From the NCBI GenBank assembly GCA_041608535.1, contig JBFISM010000002.1, positions 10,918 through 74,917 of the forward strand: DNA of 64,000 nt. Reading direction: 5' to 3'. Position 1 is the stretch's first letter, and the number at the start of each line of letters is the position of its first letter. The notes under the pieces were generated by a model. That model saw nothing but the letters and a program-made list of their open reading frames with translations. It did no database searches and was not told the DNA's origin. Of the stretch, positions 26,564-30,775 are shown one piece after another. The stretch comes from Acidimicrobiia bacterium. GTDB lineage: Bacteria > Actinomycetota > Acidimicrobiia > Spongiisociales > UBA5794. Position numbers and translations under genes: made by a program.

Positions 26564-26647
26564 CTTCCAGGTCGAGTCCGCGCCAGTCCGGCAGTGCGCA
26601 GCGGCGGCACCGTGAGCTCCGCAGCGATACGCTGGGGAGACGACACA

Positions 26648-27700
26648 GTGGAGGCACGCACGACCACGGCGCTGGCCATCGGGACCATGAAGGGCGCCTG
26701 GATCGCTTGGTCCGACGATTCGGTCGACTGGCAACTCGATGGGCCCTACCTCAAGGGATGGCAGGTGACCACCTTCGGCCGCGCCGCGGACGGGAGCCAT
26801 CTGCTCGCCACCGGCAGCAGCTGGTTCGGAGCGGCGATCCATCGCAGCACCGACCTCGAGCAATGGGACCAGGTGGTTGCCGGCCCGGCATTCGACGAAG
26901 CGGACGGGCGCAAACTCGAGCAGGTGTGGACGTTCGCCGACTCCGGGGAGCGGCTGCTCGCCGGCGTCGCAGAGGCGGCACTCTTCACGAGCGACGATTC
27001 GGGGGAGACGTGGTCGGTGGTGGCCGGTCTCGATGCCCATCCCACCCGCAAGCAATGGGAGCCGGGTCTTGGTGGGTTGGCTGCTCATCGTGTCCTCGTC
27101 GACACCAGCAACCCGCAGCGGATGTGGACGGGGATCTCGGCAGTCGGTGTGTTCGCGACCGAGGACGGTGGCGAGACCTGGGAGCTGCGCAACGAGGGGG
27201 TCGAGGTGACGTCGCCGAGCGACGGCGGCGACATCGGGTACTGCGTGCATGCCCTGGTGGCGCATCCGGACGATGCCGACACGATATGGCGTCAGGATCA
27301 CCGCGGGGTGTATCGCACCGATGACGGTGGTGTGTCCTGGGAGCGCATCGAACGCGGTCTTCCCGGCGCCGGATTCGGCTTTCCCATCGATCGTGACGCC
27401 GCATCGGGAGCGCTCTTCGTGGTTCCTCTCGAATCGGATCAGTACCGCATGCCGGTTGACGGTCAGTTCGCCGTCTACCGGTCGACAGACGACGGCGATT
27501 CGTGGCATCGTTGTGAGGCGACGGCCGACAGCTACACGAGCGTGCTTCGTGACGCCATGGCCACAGACTGCCGAGGTGGCGTCTACATCGGCACGACCGG
27601 GGGCGAGGTGATCCACAGCCCCGATGGCGGCGACGGGTGGATCGGGCTGCCGTGGCGATTCCCACGGATCCTGTCCACCCATGTGCTGCCGGTGGCATGA
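26648..27700 (+). CDS. BNR/Asp-box repeat beta-propeller (sialidase-like) protein
   Basis: IGTMKG; repeated S/TxDxGxT/SW boxes (SDDSGETW, TEDGGETW, TDDGGVSW, STDDGDSW); CVH; GFGFPI. Confidence 0.85.
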   Translation: MEARTTTALAIGTMKGAWIAWSDDSVDWQLDGPYLKGWQVTTFGRAADGSHLLATGSSWFGAAIHRSTDLEQWDQVVAGPAFDEADGRKLEQVWTFADSGERLLAGVAEAALFTSDDSGETWSVVAGLDAHPTRKQWEPGLGGLAAHRVLVDTSNPQRMWTGISAVGVFATEDGGETWELRNEGVEVTSPSDGGDIGYCVHALVAHPDDADTIWRQDHRGVYRTDDGGVSWERIERGLPGAGFGFPIDRDAASGALFVVPLESDQYRMPVDGQFAVYRSTDDGDSWHRCEATADSYTSVLRDAMATDCRGGVYIGTTGGEVIHSPDGGDGWIGLPWRFPRILSTHVLPVA

Positions 27701-27981
27701 GCCGGGTCGAAGTCACCATTCCTGCCATGCTCGCCACGCTGGTTGGCGAGGAGCGCACGTTCCAGGTCGACGGAGAGACGGTGCGTGATGTGCTCCATGA
27801 GCTTTGCGTCAGGCATCCCGAGCTGCGGGTTCATCTGTTCGACGAGATCGGTGCGCTCCGACCTCACGTGTCGGTGTTTCACGACGATCGCACGGTCCAC
27901 GACCTGGATGCATCGGTCGCCGACGGCGCCAGGATCGTCGTCCTGCAGGCGGTGAGTGGCGGTGTGGCATCCCGCGAGTGA
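27697..27981 (+). CDS. MoaD/ThiS family ubiquitin-like protein
   Basis: VTIPAML, TVRDVL, LRPHVSVF, LQAVSGG followed by a VASRE extension; ATGA overlap. Confidence 0.85.
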   Translation: MSRVEVTIPAMLATLVGEERTFQVDGETVRDVLHELCVRHPELRVHLFDEIGALRPHVSVFHDDRTVHDLDASVADGARIVVLQAVSGGVASRE

Positions 27982-28019: not shown

Positions 28020-28742
28020 TCAGCCACGGACGAGCGCAACCGCCCCTGCCGGTGAACCCGGCCACGGCTCACCGTGGCCGGGCAGGATGAGAGATGCCTC
28101 GAGATCGATGATGCGATCGAGCGAAGCGTGCGCCATGGCGTCGTCGAGGTTGAAGCGGCGCTCGATCATCTGTGGCCCCCGCTCCGGCCCGATGAGGTCC
28201 ATCGTGATGAGACCGTCACCGGTGAAGAGCAGCCCCCGATCCGGACTGTGGAACATGGTGTGGCCTTCAGTGTGACCCGGAGTGTGGATGGCCACGAGAC
28301 TGCCTGGAAGGTCCAGCGTCTCACCATCCTCGAATGTTTCGACAGCGGCCACGTGATCCAGCTTCAAAACGCCGGCGACGATCATGGGGAGAAACGTCCG
28401 CAGTGCGTGGATATTGAACAGCGGCAGCTCGCTGGCAGACACCGCATAGCGACCTCGGTAGGTACCGGCTGCTCTCGTCGCCTCATCCTCATGGACCGCG
28501 ACCACCACCCCGTTGTCGGTAGCCCTCTTGGCGAGCCCGAAGTGGTCGGCGTGGGAGTGGGTGGCGACGATCCCGGCCACCGCAGCCAAAGAGAGCCCAA
28601 CCGACTCCAAGGCTGCGATCAGCTTTTTCCACTCGTTGCGGCACCCTGCGTCCACGATGGTGGCCCGATCGCCCTCCTTGAGCACGTAGAAGTTGTGCCC
28701 GCGGGTGCCAAGCCGGTAGGTATCTGCGGCGACCTGTTGCAT
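28020..28742 (-). CDS. MBL-fold metallo-hydrolase
   Basis: VDAG, THSHADH, TPGHTEGH, FTGD, PGHG; TAGCCT -10 lies 7 nt before the ATG (leaderless). Confidence 0.9.
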   Translation of the reverse strand: MQQVAADTYRLGTRGHNFYVLKEGDRATIVDAGCRNEWKKLIAALESVGLSLAAVAGIVATHSHADHFGLAKRATDNGVVVAVHEDEATRAAGTYRGRYAVSASELPLFNIHALRTFLPMIVAGVLKLDHVAAVETFEDGETLDLPGSLVAIHTPGHTEGHTMFHSPDRGLLFTGDGLITMDLIGPERGPQMIERRFNLDDAMAHASLDRIIDLEASLILPGHGEPWPGSPAGAVALVRG

Positions 28743-28818
28743 GCAGCCGAGGCTACCCGGGCATTGGGCCGGGATGCTCGGTACCGGCGCTGAGTGCATT
28801 CGGTGCGTCGTCGAGCGT

Positions 28819-28849
28819 GGGGCGGGTCGGTGGGCGTCCGACCCGCCCC
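28819..28849 (-). terminator. GC-rich hairpin downstream of the OsmC-like gene
   Basis: GGGGCGGGTCGG / CCGACCCGCCCC 12-bp inverted repeat. Confidence 0.55.
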
Positions 28850-28873
28850 CAGCTCGTCTGCAGCCGGCTCGAC

Positions 28874-29407
28874 TCAGCCCAGCTCGATTGCCAGCGGTAT
28901 CGCTCTGCTCAGGGTGTGACCCACTGGGGAGGTCGAAGTCACCTTGTCGTGGAGATCGGCGATGGCTGCCGGATCGCCGTCTGCGTCGATGTGCACGGTT
29001 GCCCGAATCCCCGAGTAGCCGGCATGGCCGTCGGCGAGACCGAGGAACGTCTCGAGGTTGAGGTCGCCCTCCAGCTCGATGCGCAGATCGCGCAGCTCGA
29101 GGCCGAGGGCAGTGGCGTTGGCGGCGTAGCCGACGGCGAGGCAATTGCCCAGAGCCGCAAGCAGCTGCTCCACGGGGTTGGGCGCCGTGTCGGTGCCCCC
29201 CAGCCCGGTCGGCTCGTCCGATGCGATCGGGTCGAACTCGCGGATGCTCGCCTCGGAGCGGAAGCCGCCGCTCCACGCAACCGATGCCGCCCACCTCGTG
29301 TCGCCGGCGTCGGGGTTCTCTGTGATGTGGTTGGCCAGCTCGCCGACGGTGGCGATGTCGACATCGTTCAGCCGCACGTCGGCCGAGCTGGATGCAGTCG
29401 TTGTCAT
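28874..29407 (-). CDS. OsmC-like protein (single-Cys subfamily)
   Basis: DEPTGLGGTDTAPNPVEQLLAALGNC; SPV where the second Cys normally sits; AGGAG RBS. Confidence 0.88.
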   Translation of the reverse strand: MTTTASSSADVRLNDVDIATVGELANHITENPDAGDTRWAASVAWSGGFRSEASIREFDPIASDEPTGLGGTDTAPNPVEQLLAALGNCLAVGYAANATALGLELRDLRIELEGDLNLETFLGLADGHAGYSGIRATVHIDADGDPAAIADLHDKVTSTSPVGHTLSRAIPLAIELG

Positions 29408-29497
29408 CTCGTTCTCCTGTGGTCGATGGTCAGGTGGCGTTGGGAAACGGTCACCCGGTGCTCTGCGGAATCCTCTCGGGTCGGTGCAGAAGCCGTG

Positions 29498-29575
29498 TCA
29501 GCGAAGGACCCGAGAGCGCATACAGCGCATGACGGCCGTAGCGCCCGCTGAGCGGGTCGGAGAGAGGTTGGTCAT
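29498..29575 (-). CDS. Putative Met/Cys leader peptide MTNLSPTRSAGATAVMRCMRSRVLR (25 aa)
   Basis: GGAG RBS; lies between the SAM riboswitch and the OsmC-like gene; M-R-C-M cluster immediately before a hairpin arm. Confidence 0.55.
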   Translation of the reverse strand: MTNLSPTRSAGATAVMRCMRSRVLR

Positions 29576-29638
29576 GTCGGGCTCCGTTCTGCTGCGACGC
29601 GCTCTGCGAGCGCCTCGAGCGGAGACCGCCGAGGGCAA

Positions 29639-29718
29639 CTCATCGTGCAGGCATTGGCACCGTGCGTCGCCGGTTGCCGCGGTTTCGAAGGGCCTGTCCC
29701 TCCACCGCTCTGGATGAG
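29639..29718 (-). ncRNA. SAM-I (S-box) riboswitch, with P4 reduced
   Basis: Minus strand CTCATCCAGAGCGGTGGAGGGACAGGCCCTTCGAAACCGCGGCAACCG...CGGTGCCAATGCCTGCACGATGAG. P1 CTCATC/GATGAG, kink-turn P2, pseudoknot CAGGC/GCCTG; TATACT -10 at 29733-29738. Confidence 0.9.
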
Positions 29719-29827
29719 CGCGTACCGGGGCGAGTATACGGGCGGCTGTAGCGGCTGGAAACAGGTCGATCGCATCGGATCTCCGACCAGCGAGGCCCTC
29801 ACCAGACGCTGCCAGACTGCCCGGGAC

Positions 29828-30775
29828 ATGGCCTCACATCGACTCGCTGCCGGCCTCTGGATGGGGATCGCCGCCCACACCATCTGGGGGCTCAGCCCGA
29901 TCTACTGGAACCTGGTCGACGGCGTCGCTGCCGTGGAGATTCTGGCGAACCGAGTCGTTTGGTCGATCCCGGCCTTGCTCGTGGTCCTCGCTGCAGCTCG
30001 GCGTCTGCGGTCGTGGCGCGCCGGCTTCCGCAGCCGGCGCACCGTGGCGCTCACTGTTGCGGGTGCGGCGCTGCTGTCTGTCAACTGGGGGTTGTTTCTG
30101 TGGGCGGTGGTCAGTGAACGGATCGTGGAAGCGAGCCTCGGGTACTTCATGACTCCTCTGGTGTCCGTGGCCCTCGGCGTCCTCGTGCTGGGGGAGCGGC
30201 TCAACTGGTCGCAGCGAGTCGCACTCACGGTGGCAACCATCGGTGTTGCGGGGATGACCATCGTCCACGGCGGACTGCCGTGGGTGTCGCTCGCCCTGGC
30301 CATGTCGTTTGGTACCTATGGGCTGCTCAAGAAGCTGCCGGCCGCCACCGGTGCGCTCGAATCGCTGTTCGGAGAGGCAGCGATCGTCGCCGTGCCCTGC
30401 ACCGGATACCTCGTCGTGCTGGCCGCGGCGGGGAGCGGTTCGCTCGGCGCCGGCCCTGGCATCACGATGTGGTTGCTGGCGGCCGGGATCGTCACCGCAG
30501 CGCCGCTGTGGCTCTTCGGAGCCGGGGTGCAGCGCATCCCGCTCTCCACCATGGGGCTACTGCAGTACATCGCACCCTCGCTGCAGCTGCTGGTTGGTGT
30601 TTTGCTCTACGGCGAGGTCCTCGATGCGGGCCGACTCCTCGGGTTCGTCGCCATCTGGATCGCTCTCGGCCTCGTGGTGCGAGATCAGTTGAGCCGGTTT
30701 CGTCGCGACATCGCACCGGCTGCCGAAGAGATCGCATCTCTCCCCATGTCCGTCGATCCCGATCGCCTGCGCTGA
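29828..30775 (+). CDS. rarD: EamA family transporter RarD
   Basis: IWGLSPIYW, EILANRVVWS, NWGLF, EASLGYFMTPL, GLLQYIAPSLQ. Confidence 0.9.
   Translation: MASHRLAAGLWMGIAAHTIWGLSPIYWNLVDGVAAVEILANRVVWSIPALLVVLAAARRLRSWRAGFRSRRTVALTVAGAALLSVNWGLFLWAVVSERIVEASLGYFMTPLVSVALGVLVLGERLNWSQRVALTVATIGVAGMTIVHGGLPWVSLALAMSFGTYGLLKKLPAATGALESLFGEAAIVAVPCTGYLVVLAAAGSGSLGAGPGITMWLLAAGIVTAAPLWLFGAGVQRIPLSTMGLLQYIAPSLQLLVGVLLYGEVLDAGRLLGFVAIWIALGLVVRDQLSRFRRDIAPAAEEIASLPMSVDPDRLR

What the first reader, a model, noticed from the sequence alone, without database searches (positions are those of the whole stretch)
28874..29738. Tandem sulfur sensor: SAM-I riboswitch, Met/Cys leader peptide and switchable hairpin upstream of an OsmC-like gene
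Seen (minus strand): TATACT -10, then a clear SAM-I aptamer (29718-29639). Next is a 25-codon ORF absent from the ORF track (29575-29498, MTNLSPTRSAGATAVMRCMRSRVLR) with its own GGAG RBS. A CTCCG just after the aptamer (29624-29620) is complementary to the CGGAG containing that RBS. Directly after the M-R-C-M codons begins one arm of a 10-bp inverted repeat (CTCTCGGGTC / GACCCGAGAG, 29516-29473). A second GACCCG in codons 6-8 could compete for the same arm. Known: SAM-I riboswitches, and separately Cys-rich leader peptides, regulate sulfur genes in actinobacteria. Inference: the riboswitch gates translation of the uORF, and ribosome stalling at Met/Cys codons flips the hairpin. That would be a two-input gate (SAM plus charged Met/Cys tRNA) on a gene with no known role in sulfur metabolism. 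No U-tract follows, so output may be Rho-dependent or translational.
Basis: partly seen in the sequence, partly recalled or inferred. Interest (0 to 1): 0.82.

Follow-up and report, generated by a model that had tools for sequence, protein, structure and literature searches.

The report
SAM riboswitch plus Cys/Met leader peptide
A known SAM-sensing RNA switch is followed here by a short reading frame rich in methionine and cysteine codons that belongs to a widely conserved, apparently undescribed family of sulfur-starvation sensors, so the pair may act as a natural two-input gate.

Summary
Rfam finds one SAM-I aptamer at 29720-29637 (-), 71.6 bits. The 25-codon uORF, its GGAG, the CTCCG/CGGAG pair and the 10-bp inverted repeat lie at the stated coordinates.

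The uORF and hairpin are a diverged copy of a conserved leader element. All 30 OsmC-like orthologue loci read in the same family carry it. 14 of 30 have a SAM-I aptamer by BLAST; 12 of 30 have none within 520 nt.

Evidence that the element is real:
- In 36 of 38 aptamer-selected leaders the start codon is in frame with arm 1, at 16 different distances.
- The third codon before arm 1 is Cys or Met in 96% of 71 distinct contexts.
- The arm 1:arm 3 helix covaries: 9 of 11 pairs, 0 of 500 shuffles.
- The window carries its own G-C to C-G swap.
- The element also precedes metY, rhodanese and cysteine-synthase-like genes.

The closest known system is the mycobacterial polycysteine sORF attenuator. 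The riboswitch-gated AND logic is inferred. How the window's copy controls OsmC is unresolved, because its SD is predicted open in every modelled state.

The parts
29733..29761 (-). Promoter-like -35/-10 (TTTCCA, 17 nt, TATACT)
   Evidence: the only promoter-like site in 28700-29950, 9 of 12 matches, shuffle mean 0.0. It is a consensus match only.
29637..29720 (-). SAM-I (S-box) riboswitch aptamer
   Evidence: RF00162, 71.6 bits (gathering score 44.4), E 9.1e-15, model positions 1-108 of 108, not truncated.
29576..29636 (-). Expression platform. It is a three-part hairpin in which CUCC (29624-29621) pairs with the uORF SD GGAG (29585-29582). The middle helix is 29620-29615 with 29597-29591. 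The inner hairpin is 29613-29608 with 29604-29599.
   Evidence: local fold, -29.7 kcal/mol; the platform is homologous to the one that directly precedes the start codon of the paralogous OsmC-like gene in L003; conserved in 38 leaders; cognate against non-cognate anti-SD:SD test.
29498..29575 (-). Leader ORF of 25 codons (MTNLSPTRSAGATAVMRCMRSRVLR)
   Evidence: Homologous leader ORFs occur in related loci. Frame is kept in 36 of 38 leaders.
29519..29530 (-). Met-Arg-Cys-Met codons, the presumed sensing codons
   Evidence: the third codon before arm 1 is Cys or Met in 96% of 71 distinct contexts. In the window this codon is Cys.
29507..29516 (-). Arm 1 of the conserved helix (CTCTCGGGTC), inside the uORF
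   Evidence: the helix is 90.3% paired over 38 leaders, and 9 of 11 pairs show changes on both sides. The window carries a G-C to C-G swap at the last pair of the core.
29473..29482 (-). Arm 3 of the conserved helix (GACCCGAGAG), 15 nt after the uORF stop
29553..29558 (-). Upstream GACCCG in codons 6-8, a possible 6-bp competitor for arm 1
   Evidence: Seen only in the window; no systematic search was made in relatives.
29431..29457 (-). Predicted hairpin between arm 3 and the OsmC SD. It holds a CAACGCCACC stretch resembling the family's GAACGCCACC segment.
   Evidence: folds only. The family's GGAACGCC/GGCGTTCC hairpin itself is absent from the window.
28874..29407 (-). OsmC-like gene (177 aa), with SD AGGAGA at about 29418-29413
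   Evidence: PF02566, E 2.7e-18; only a sub-threshold NCBIfam match to OsmC-related (seleno)protein.
28020..28742 (-). MBL-fold hydrolase gene, probably in the same operon
   Evidence: PF00753, E 1.7e-25. It lies on the same strand, 131 nt downstream of the OsmC stop. Operon membership is inferred.

Best explanation
The leader of the OsmC-like/MBL operon has two sensors in series.

1. A SAM-I riboswitch comes first. Its platform can pair a CUCC segment with the Shine-Dalgarno sequence of the first reading frame.
2. That first frame is not the gene. It is a 25-codon leader ORF belonging to a conserved family of Cys/Met-codon leader peptides found in Acidimicrobiia.
3. In the family, a cluster of Cys and Met codons sits two to seven codons before an RNA arm (arm 1). 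Arm 1 pairs with a second arm (arm 3) after the uORF stop.

Proposed working:
- When Cys- or Met-tRNA is scarce, a ribosome waits on these codons. It covers arm 1, which keeps the repressing fold from forming, and the downstream gene is expressed.
- When SAM is high, the riboswitch hides the uORF's SD. No ribosome enters, the repressing fold forms, and the operon stays off.
- Expression therefore needs low SAM AND scarce Cys/Met.

Shown here: the aptamer, the conserved coding frame, the Cys/Met enrichment, the covarying helix, and the sulfur-metabolism regulon.

Inferred: stalling, the sign of regulation, and the gate logic.

The window's copy is remodelled. It has an early stop, no arm 2 and no GGAACGCC/GGCGTTCC hairpin. 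Its output step is not resolved and is possibly Rho-dependent polarity rather than SD masking.
For: - Aptamer.
- Platform: it is homologous to the one that directly precedes the start codon of the paralogous OsmC-like gene in the same genome (L003). The riboswitch therefore acts on whichever start follows it.
- Anti-SD:SD complementarity is lineage-matched: cognate -8.40 against non-cognate -7.50 kcal/mol, n=35, with 8 of 5000 permutations reaching the cognate mean.
- Conservation: all 30 OsmC-orthologue loci read in the family carry arm 1 plus arm 3. One is cut by a contig end. 14 of 30 have a SAM-I BLAST hit and 12 of 30 have none within 520 nt. cmscan of 20 of these loci agrees.
- Wider occurrence: 23 of 80 genome-contig loci have SAM-I upstream, 13 of those match my strict regex, and the other 10 show a Cys/Met uORF, 7 of them with covarying arms.
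- Coding frame: 36 of 38 in frame and open, with 16 distinct distances of 42-93 nt.
- Cys/Met frequency at codons -7 to -3 is 46-96%, against 2.2% in this window's proteins.
- Helix: 90.3% paired, 9 of 11 pairs changed on both sides, 0 of 500 shuffles, and slid controls 35-49% paired. The window has its own compensatory pair.
- L150 has its stop codon inside arm 1, yet the helix is fully compensated.
- Regulon: metY (PF01053), rhodanese, PALP+rhodanese, an NMT1-type binding protein and DUF1737+rhodanese.
- Fold modelling: a ribosome footprint on the Cys/Met codons raises the unpaired probability of the main SD from a mean of 0.37 to 0.49-0.53. 17 leaders go up and 1 down, of 31. A footprint at the stop codon gives 0.38.
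- Mechanistic precedent: stalled ribosomes on Cys codons unmask a sequestered RBS in mycobacteria (bioRxiv 10.1101/834739; abstract and sections 6 and 9 read).
Against: - No expression or ribosome data exist for this leader. No RNA run holding the stretch was listed.
- In the window the OsmC SD is predicted 0.54-0.57 unpaired whether the RNA is free, the aptamer is masked, or a ribosome sits on the Cys codon. In the shorter construct the value is 0.72-0.73.
- The Cys/Met region shows no complementarity to the OsmC SD in the window (z +0.6).
- Across the family that complementarity is significant in only 10 of 42 leaders.
- In one search about six gene starts were mis-assigned, so its averages are rough.
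- The window has only one Cys and two Met codons, an early stop, and lacks arm 2 and the GGAACGCC/GGCGTTCC hairpin. It may be partly decayed.
- No second copy of the element was found in the window's own genome, which is 88% complete.
- Related sequences are not independent, so the shuffle and binomial figures overstate significance.
- The loci found by the arm pattern were selected for both arms. They cannot support covariation at those positions.
Confidence: 0.62

Rival explanations
1. Relay only. The riboswitch controls translation of the uORF, and translation of the uORF merely keeps Rho from terminating in the 230-nt leader. On this reading the window's Met/Cys codons and hairpin are leftovers of the ancestral attenuator and no longer sense anything.
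For: - The window's copy is truncated and lacks arm 2 and the GGAACGCC/GGCGTTCC hairpin.
- No fold connects arm 1:arm 3 with the OsmC SD.
- No intrinsic terminator was found.
- The leader is C-rich: 87 C against 67 G in 229 nt.
Against: - The helix kept a compensatory G-C to C-G change in this lineage. That argues for continued selection on pairing.
- The Cys codon is still at the family's most conserved position, the third codon before arm 1.
Confidence: 0.2
2. Non-coding platform. The region after the aptamer is only structured RNA, either a long riboswitch expression platform or a second aptamer or protein-binding pseudoknot. The open frame would then be incidental.
For: - Arm 1, arm 3 and the adjoining CCACC are nearly invariant in sequence, more than pairing alone requires.
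- Arm 1:arm 3 and the GGAACGCC/GGCGTTCC hairpin have pseudoknot topology.
- In L150 the peptide ends inside arm 1, so the SRV residues are not essential.
Against: - 36 of 38 leaders keep the SD-proximal start in frame and open over 16 different lengths.
- Cys/Met enrichment is codon-phased.
- The element works as a unit without any riboswitch in at least 12 leaders.
- No Rfam family matches it.
Confidence: 0.08
3. The short frame encodes a functional Cys/Met-rich micropeptide, for example a metal- or redox-active one, that is co-expressed with OsmC. It would not be a sensor.
For: - The C-terminal residues after the cluster (S-R-V-A-H/R-P) recur in many copies.
Against: - Those residues overlap arms 1 and 2. 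His and Arg alternate in the way that U-A/U-G pairing predicts.
- N-terminal parts are unconserved and of variable length.
- The same element heads unrelated sulfur genes.
- L150 ends before the SRV residues.
Confidence: 0.03

Closest known systems
Polycysteine leaderless short ORFs of mycobacteria (the 'Cys ribulon'; Canestrari et al., bioRxiv 10.1101/834739; abstract, sections 6 and 9 and term searches read)
   Same: Both are short ORFs with Cys codons upstream of cysteine/sulfur-metabolism operons in Actinomycetota. In both, a ribosome waiting on the Cys codons is thought to prevent an RNA fold that represses the downstream gene. In a subset of the family here, the Cys/Met codons pair directly with the main gene's SD region.
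   Different: - Here the ORF has its own SD and a 5' leader. It is not leaderless.
- Cys codons alternate with Met (MCMCM, MC, CxC) rather than forming runs.
- A conserved, covarying helix (arm 1:arm 3) and further hairpins follow.
- About half the copies sit behind a SAM-I riboswitch.
- The paper has no occurrence of 'riboswitch' or 'OsmC'.
- Its supplementary tables of sORFs could not be seen.
SAM-I / S-box riboswitch (Rfam RF00162)
   Same: The aptamer scores well above the gathering threshold over the full model. It controls sulfur-related genes, as is usual.
   Different: The start site it appears to gate belongs to a regulatory leader ORF, not to the enzyme gene. No terminator is present.
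Salmonella mgtA and mgtCBR leaders (a riboswitch-like leader with embedded short ORFs). For mgtCBR, PMC3641672, only the search listing and the start of the abstract were seen. mgtA/mgtL is recalled.
   Same: One leader combines a ligand-sensing RNA with a short ORF whose translation reports the supply of an amino acid. The result is a multi-input decision.
   Different: The ligands (Mg2+/ATP), codons (Pro) and phylum all differ. In those leaders the ORFs act on transcription termination. Here the riboswitch seems to act upstream of the ORF, on its initiation.
SAM-V/SAM-II controlled bhmT-osmC-ordL region of Ca. Pelagibacter ubique (PMC5069961, passages read)
   Same: An OsmC-family gene is placed under a SAM riboswitch and induced by sulfur limitation (50-fold mRNA).
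   Different: The riboswitch class and the phylum differ, and no leader peptide is described.
Cys leader peptides predicted upstream of cys/cbs operons in Mycobacterium, Propionibacterium acnes and Bifidobacterium longum (Seliverstov et al. 2005, PMC1262725, passages read)
   Same: These are candidate leader peptides with Cys codons near the stop and no obvious terminator. The authors proposed a Rho-dependent output.
   Different: That paper reports no conserved hairpins for them, no Met codons and no riboswitch.

Membership tests
SAM-I riboswitch (RF00162) | Covariance-model score at or above the curated gathering score over the whole aptamer | tested here: met
   71.6 bits against 44.4, model positions 1-108 of 108, not truncated.
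SAM-I riboswitch (RF00162) | An expression platform that converts ligand binding into gene control | tested here: inconclusive
   An SD-sequestering hairpin is predicted and is conserved with lineage-matched complementarity. How the aptamer's state selects between the alternative folds was not worked out.
SAM-I riboswitch (RF00162) | Binds S-adenosylmethionine | not testable with these tools
   Needs in-line probing or ITC.
Cys-responsive leader sORF attenuators (mycobacterial type) | A short translated ORF directly upstream of sulfur/cysteine-metabolism genes | tested here: met
   The ORF is conserved and frame-preserved. Downstream genes include metY, rhodanese and PALP enzymes. Translation itself was not observed.
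Cys-responsive leader sORF attenuators (mycobacterial type) | At least two consecutive Cys codons | tested here: not met
   The window has M-R-C-M, with one Cys. Most family members alternate Cys with Met or other codons, and a few have CC or CCC.
Cys-responsive leader sORF attenuators (mycobacterial type) | Leaderless mRNA starting at the sORF AUG | tested here: not met
   The uORF has an SD and lies 61 nt after a riboswitch aptamer. SAM-less copies also have an SD.
Cys-responsive leader sORF attenuators (mycobacterial type) | The sensing codons pair with the SD region of the downstream gene | tested here: not met
   Window: duplex -9.1 kcal/mol, z +0.6, and the SD is open in all modelled states. 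Family: significant (z below -2) in 10 of 42 leaders.
Classical leader-peptide transcription attenuator (trp/his type) | A cluster of codons for the regulating amino acid in a leader ORF | tested here: met
Classical leader-peptide transcription attenuator (trp/his type) | An intrinsic terminator hairpin with a U tract as the alternative structure | tested here: not met
   0 terminator-like sites in the window leader. Weak terminator-like sites occur in two SAM-less relatives.
Composite riboswitch + leader-ORF leaders (mgtA type) | A ligand-sensing aptamer and a regulatory short ORF in one 5' leader | tested here: met
   The architecture recurs in 14 of 30 family loci and 23 of 80 wider loci.
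Composite riboswitch + leader-ORF leaders (mgtA type) | Output through Rho-dependent termination | not testable with these tools
   Only the C-rich composition is available.

The most novel reading that the evidence does not exclude
In many Acidimicrobiia a SAM-I riboswitch does not control an enzyme gene directly. Instead it controls entry of ribosomes into a Cys/Met-codon leader ORF that is itself a tRNA-charging sensor. The pair would form a natural RNA-only AND gate, requiring low SAM and scarce Cys/Met. It would switch on a sulfur-starvation regulon headed by OsmC-like proteins. The leader-peptide element, with its covarying long-range helix and pseudoknot-like hairpin, would be a new, defined class of attenuator that works alone or behind the riboswitch.
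Probability: 0.5. Interest if true: 0.82.

Novelty: new variant of a known kind. Interest (0 to 1): 0.72.

Why it matters
- Riboswitches and leader-peptide attenuators are usually treated as separate solutions. A conserved arrangement in which one gates the other would be a clear natural example of serial logic built from RNA and the ribosome alone. It would also provide ready-made parts for synthetic circuits.
- The comparison defines a family of dozens of sequences with a testable helix and a testable codon cluster. It extends Cys-responsive attenuation from mycobacteria to Acidimicrobiia, which are abundant, mostly uncultured marine, freshwater and sponge-associated bacteria. It adds Met codons to the sensor.
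- OsmC-like proteins of unknown role are the commonest cargo of sulfur-starvation signals in this family. This parallels the SAM-riboswitch-controlled osmC of Pelagibacter and makes their function in sulfur limitation a concrete question.

Tried and rejected
- **Whole-leader folding.** z was -1.14, which is not informative.
- **DNA search with the whole leader.** Among 133 family genomes no match extends past the uORF start, apart from the window itself. The uORF looked unconserved until the orthologous loci were read directly.
- **Frame count of ATG/TGY triplets**. ATGTGT also scores in the +1 frame, so I replaced this with the start-to-arm phase test.
- **Automatic start finder.** The finder that allowed TTG picked wrong starts in 5 of 38 leaders.
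- **Arm 1:arm 2 local hairpin.** It is 76.7% paired, but covariation is not above the controls. I treat it as possible, not shown. It is absent from the window.
- **GGAACGCC/GGCGTTCC hairpin as a terminator.** U tracts are weak. The window has none, and one weak hit each was found on the leader strand in L045 and L049.
- **Promoter for SAM-less leaders.** The scan gave 0 sites in L045 and L049. 'Own promoter' is therefore unverified.
- **Closer relatives.** The metagenome-contig scan found nothing above 69% identity. Its loci were used only in the codon census.
- **Expression.** No RNA holder was listed.
- **Laying four DNA runs.** Only pieces identical to the window cover 29331-29637, with no variants.
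- **Own genome.** A fuzzy arm search and a scan for Cys/Met-rich small ORFs gave only the window's copy. The other hits lie inside coding regions.
- **Phylum sample.** The strict arm pattern hit 31 of 201 genomes. Outside the window's family the matched strings lack the GCCACCACCC context, and I read them as chance. The reversed control pattern also hits about ten genomes. They were not followed up.
- **Literature.** Six full-text searches found no paper describing a SAM riboswitch followed by a Cys/Met leader ORF.
- **Not run.** Complex prediction, structure prediction and the protein database searches were not used. No covariance model was built.
Full report
**1. What is in the window**

All features lie on the minus strand.
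- A promoter-like TTTCCA-17-TATACT sits at 29761-29733. It is the only such site in 28700-29950.
- It is followed by a full-length SAM-I aptamer at 29720-29637. This is RF00162 at 71.6 bits against a gathering score of 44.4, and it is the only Rfam hit in the 64 kb.
- The gene that follows (29407-28874) is an OsmC-family protein. An MBL-fold hydrolase gene lies next on the same strand.
- No U-tract terminator is present.

Taken alone, these features are not beyond chance.
- The window holds 27 perfect 10-bp inverted repeats with short loops.
- The leader as a whole folds no better than shuffles.
- Three Cys/Met codons in 24 has P about 0.017.

**2. The riboswitch platform points at the uORF start**

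The window's genome has three SAM-I aptamers. One precedes a metH-like gene. One precedes a paralogous OsmC-like gene followed by a pyridine-nucleotide-disulphide oxidoreductase (L003).

In L003 the roughly 60-nt stretch after the aptamer is homologous to the window's. It runs straight into AGGAG and the start codon of the gene. In the window the same stretch runs into GGAG and the start codon of the uORF.

A local fold of the window's platform pairs CUCC 29624-29621 with GGAG 29585-29582. These sit on top of a middle helix and a conserved inner hairpin.

Over 35 leaders the segment holding CUCC binds its own SD region better than those of other leaders. The values are -8.40 against -7.50 kcal/mol, and 8 of 5000 partner permutations reach the cognate mean. 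Some relatives fold instead into a GCGGG/CCCGC hairpin that would free the SD, so two states exist. I did not work out how SAM chooses between them.

**3. The uORF and hairpin are a conserved element**

A DNA search with the whole leader found nothing beyond the uORF start in 133 genomes of the family. The orthologous loci tell another story.
- The OsmC protein has close orthologues (54-69% identity) in about 30 of the 133 genomes. I read 30 such loci.
- All 30 carry arm 1 and arm 3 upstream of the gene. One is cut by a contig end.
- 14 of 30 have a SAM-I aptamer by BLAST. 12 of 30 have none within 520 nt. 4 have too little upstream sequence to tell.
- cmscan of 20 of the loci agrees. It finds no other Rfam family except a chance sub-threshold miRNA hit.

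In every complete case a short ORF with its own SD runs through a cluster of Cys and Met codons, then through arm 1, and stops shortly before arm 3.
- The SAM-less copies typically read M-C-M-C-M in the cluster.
- The copies behind a riboswitch are shorter and read M-C, M-M-C or M-A-M-M.
- The window reads M-R-C-M.
- The nearest orthologue's leader (L035) aligns with the window's peptide through the cluster and arm 1.
- After arm 1 the window has an early stop. It has lost arm 2 and the GGAACGCC/GGCGTTCC hairpin that encloses arm 3 in the family.

**4. Wider occurrence**

The 80 best OsmC relatives in the genome collection are mostly MAGs labelled Acidimicrobiia, Acidimicrobiales, Ilumatobacteraceae or sponge-associated candidate families.
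- 23 of the 80 have a SAM-I hit upstream.
- 13 of those 23 match my strict arm pattern.
- The other 10 also have a Cys/Met-rich uORF. Seven show arms that have changed on both sides, for example CTTCCGGG with CCCGGAAG, or CTCTTGAGCGG with CCGCTCAAGAG. The other three have H/R-R-C-x-M clusters without canonical arms.
- In L150 the stop codon lies inside arm 1 while the helix is perfect. The RNA pairing, not the S-R-V residues, is therefore what is kept.
- Loci labelled Proteobacteria have neither feature.

In an even sample of 201 genomes of the phylum, the strict pattern gave no convincing hit outside the window's family. I take the canonical form to be lineage-restricted.

**5. Tests**

*Coding.* I chose 38 leaders only by having a SAM-I aptamer upstream of an OsmC-like gene, and aligned them with MAFFT without regard to structure.
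- The first ATG/GTG behind the platform's SD is in phase with arm 1 and open in 36 of 38.
- The start-to-arm distance takes 16 different values from 42 to 93 nt.
- The two exceptions are variants without canonical arms.
- Relatedness inflates the binomial figure, but the many length classes are hard to explain without translation.

*Codon content.* Over 71 distinct 12-codon contexts from all loci held, including pattern-selected ones and ten metagenome contigs, Cys or Met occupies the third codon before arm 1 in 96%. It occupies the four codons before that in 46-58%. In this window's proteins the frequency is 2.2%. The three misses are wrong-strand or chance matches.

*Helix.* On the same 38-leader alignment arm 1:arm 3 is 90.3% paired.
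- 9 of 11 pairs show changes on both sides.
- No shuffle of 500 reaches the observed values.
- Sliding the partner by 1-3 columns drops pairing to 35-49%.
- The window contributes its own G-C to C-G exchange (GGGTC with GACCC).
- The GGAACGCC/GGCGTTCC hairpin is 76% paired, with 4 of 7 pairs compensated.
- That hairpin crosses arm 1:arm 3, so the two either exclude each other or form a pseudoknot.
- The arm 1:arm 2 hairpin is not supported beyond the controls.

**6. What the element controls**

A pattern search for the two arms hit 53 of 133 family genomes, with almost no hits for the reversed control. It brought in loci that are not OsmC. I fetched 16 regions. In L074 the frame shows no Cys/Met uORF and I read it as a chance match. 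The other 15, and L032, show a Cys/Met-rich frame before arm 1.

The downstream genes are:
- O-acetylhomoserine sulfhydrylase-type PLP enzymes (PF01053). Five loci were read: L063-L065 and L032 behind a SAM-I BLAST match, and L073 with a shorter match.
- A two-domain rhodanese.
- A PALP enzyme fused to rhodanese.
- DUF1737 plus rhodanese.
- An NMT1-type binding lipoprotein.
- A RimK-like ligase (sub-threshold NCBIfam match).
- The second type of OsmC-like gene.

This is a sulfur-assimilation regulon, and it fits a sensor of Cys/Met supply. These pattern-selected loci say nothing about covariation at the pattern positions.

**7. How it may work**

With a ribosome footprint placed on the Cys/Met codons, thermodynamic models raise the unpaired probability of the main gene's SD region. 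The mean goes from 0.37 to 0.49-0.53 over 31 OsmC leaders, with 17 up and 1 down. A footprint at the stop codon leaves it at 0.38. About six gene starts were mis-assigned there, so the means are rough.

In several minimum-energy folds the Cys/Met codons pair with the SD and spacer of the gene, with arm 1:arm 3 stacked inside. The duplex is stronger for cognate than for non-cognate pairs (-15.5 against -13.3 kcal/mol). It reaches z below -2 in only 10 of 42 leaders.

This is the logic shown by mutation for the mycobacterial polycysteine sORFs. There, stalled ribosomes block a fold that sequesters the RBS, and removing the start codon deepens repression (bioRxiv 10.1101/834739; abstract, sections 6 and 9 and one passage of section 5).

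If the riboswitch hides the uORF's SD when SAM is high, no ribosome can stall. The tandem then reads as low SAM AND scarce Cys/Met. That is inference.

**8. The window's own copy**

Here the model fails to give an output.
- The OsmC SD is predicted 0.54-0.57 unpaired in the free leader, with the aptamer masked, and with a ribosome on the Cys codon. Only arm 1:arm 3 changes (probability 0.49, 0.38 and 0.01).
- The Cys/Met codons have no match to the SD.
- The leader is C-rich and lacks a terminator, so Rho-dependent polarity is a reasonable alternative output.
- The compensatory change in the helix and the retained Cys position argue that the copy is still under selection.
- The early stop and the lost hairpins allow partial decay.
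- No closer relatives were found to decide this.
- The genome holds no second copy.

**9. Comparison with what is known**

SAM-I riboswitches are textbook. Cys leader peptides in Actinobacteria were predicted in 2005 without conserved hairpins (PMC1262725, passages). They were shown to work in mycobacteria in 2020 (above).

An OsmC gene under a SAM riboswitch, induced 50-fold by sulfur limitation, is described for Pelagibacter (PMC5069961, passages).

Leaders that combine a riboswitch-like sensor with short regulatory ORFs are known from Salmonella mgt operons. For PMC3641672 only the listing and the start of the abstract were seen. mgtA is recalled.

In six searches I found no paper that puts a SAM riboswitch in front of a Cys/Met leader ORF, or that describes this Acidimicrobiia element.

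**10. Verdict**

- I file the thing as a new variant of known kinds: a riboswitch plus a leader-peptide attenuator. It is a defined, conserved, structured Cys/Met leader element that occurs alone or gated by SAM-I.
- The window holds a remodelled member of that family.

Noticed in passing
L003 (G000:C4, aptamer at locus 1498-1581, gene 1650-2210, next gene from 2227): The same genome has a second SAM-I riboswitch in front of a paralogous OsmC-like gene (about 29% identical). A pyridine-nucleotide-disulphide/FMO-like oxidoreductase follows. This copy has no uORF. In other genera its orthologues do have Cys-rich uORFs (L009, L059, L060, L069, L078).
   Followed up: partly
window 27697-27981 (+) and 26594-27700 (+): A ThiS-family small protein (PF02597) sits directly after a BNR/Sortilin-like ORF. 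It is convergent with the OsmC-MBL operon and may be a sulfur-carrier context.
   Followed up: no
window 29831-30775 (+): An EamA-family transporter gene is divergent from the riboswitch promoter. The intergenic region is short and shared.
   Followed up: no
L150:486-703: The leader ORF ends with its stop codon inside arm 1. The 12-bp helix is nonetheless fully compensated with a different sequence, which separates RNA pairing from peptide conservation.
   Followed up: partly
L034, L036, L039, L042-L049, L052, L055, L062 (upstream of the uORF SD): SAM-less leaders share a GTGCT(T/C)(T/A)ACT motif, with TTGAC(T/A) about 17 nt before it. The same motif precedes the aptamer in L003, L009 and L021. 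The sigma-70 scan scored 0 sites in L045 and L049, because the -10 lacks A at position 2.
   Followed up: partly
L045:629-656 and L049:656-682: Weak terminator-like sites occur in SAM-less leaders. One is formed by arm 3's CCGAG with TTCGG and is followed by CGTTCCGTTT. The other is the variable hairpin just before the gene's SD, followed by TTCTTGATTA.
   Followed up: no
L098-L100, L104, L110, L112, L113, L115 and others: OsmC-like orthologues at 60-66% identity lie in MAGs labelled Alpha- or Gammaproteobacteria. They have neither SAM-I nor the leader element upstream. This could reflect transfer between phyla or binning errors.
   Followed up: no
window 29519-29531 (-): The Met-Arg-Cys-Met codons can themselves form a small 5-bp hairpin (CAUGC/GUAUG). 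This comes from a local fold only.
   Followed up: no
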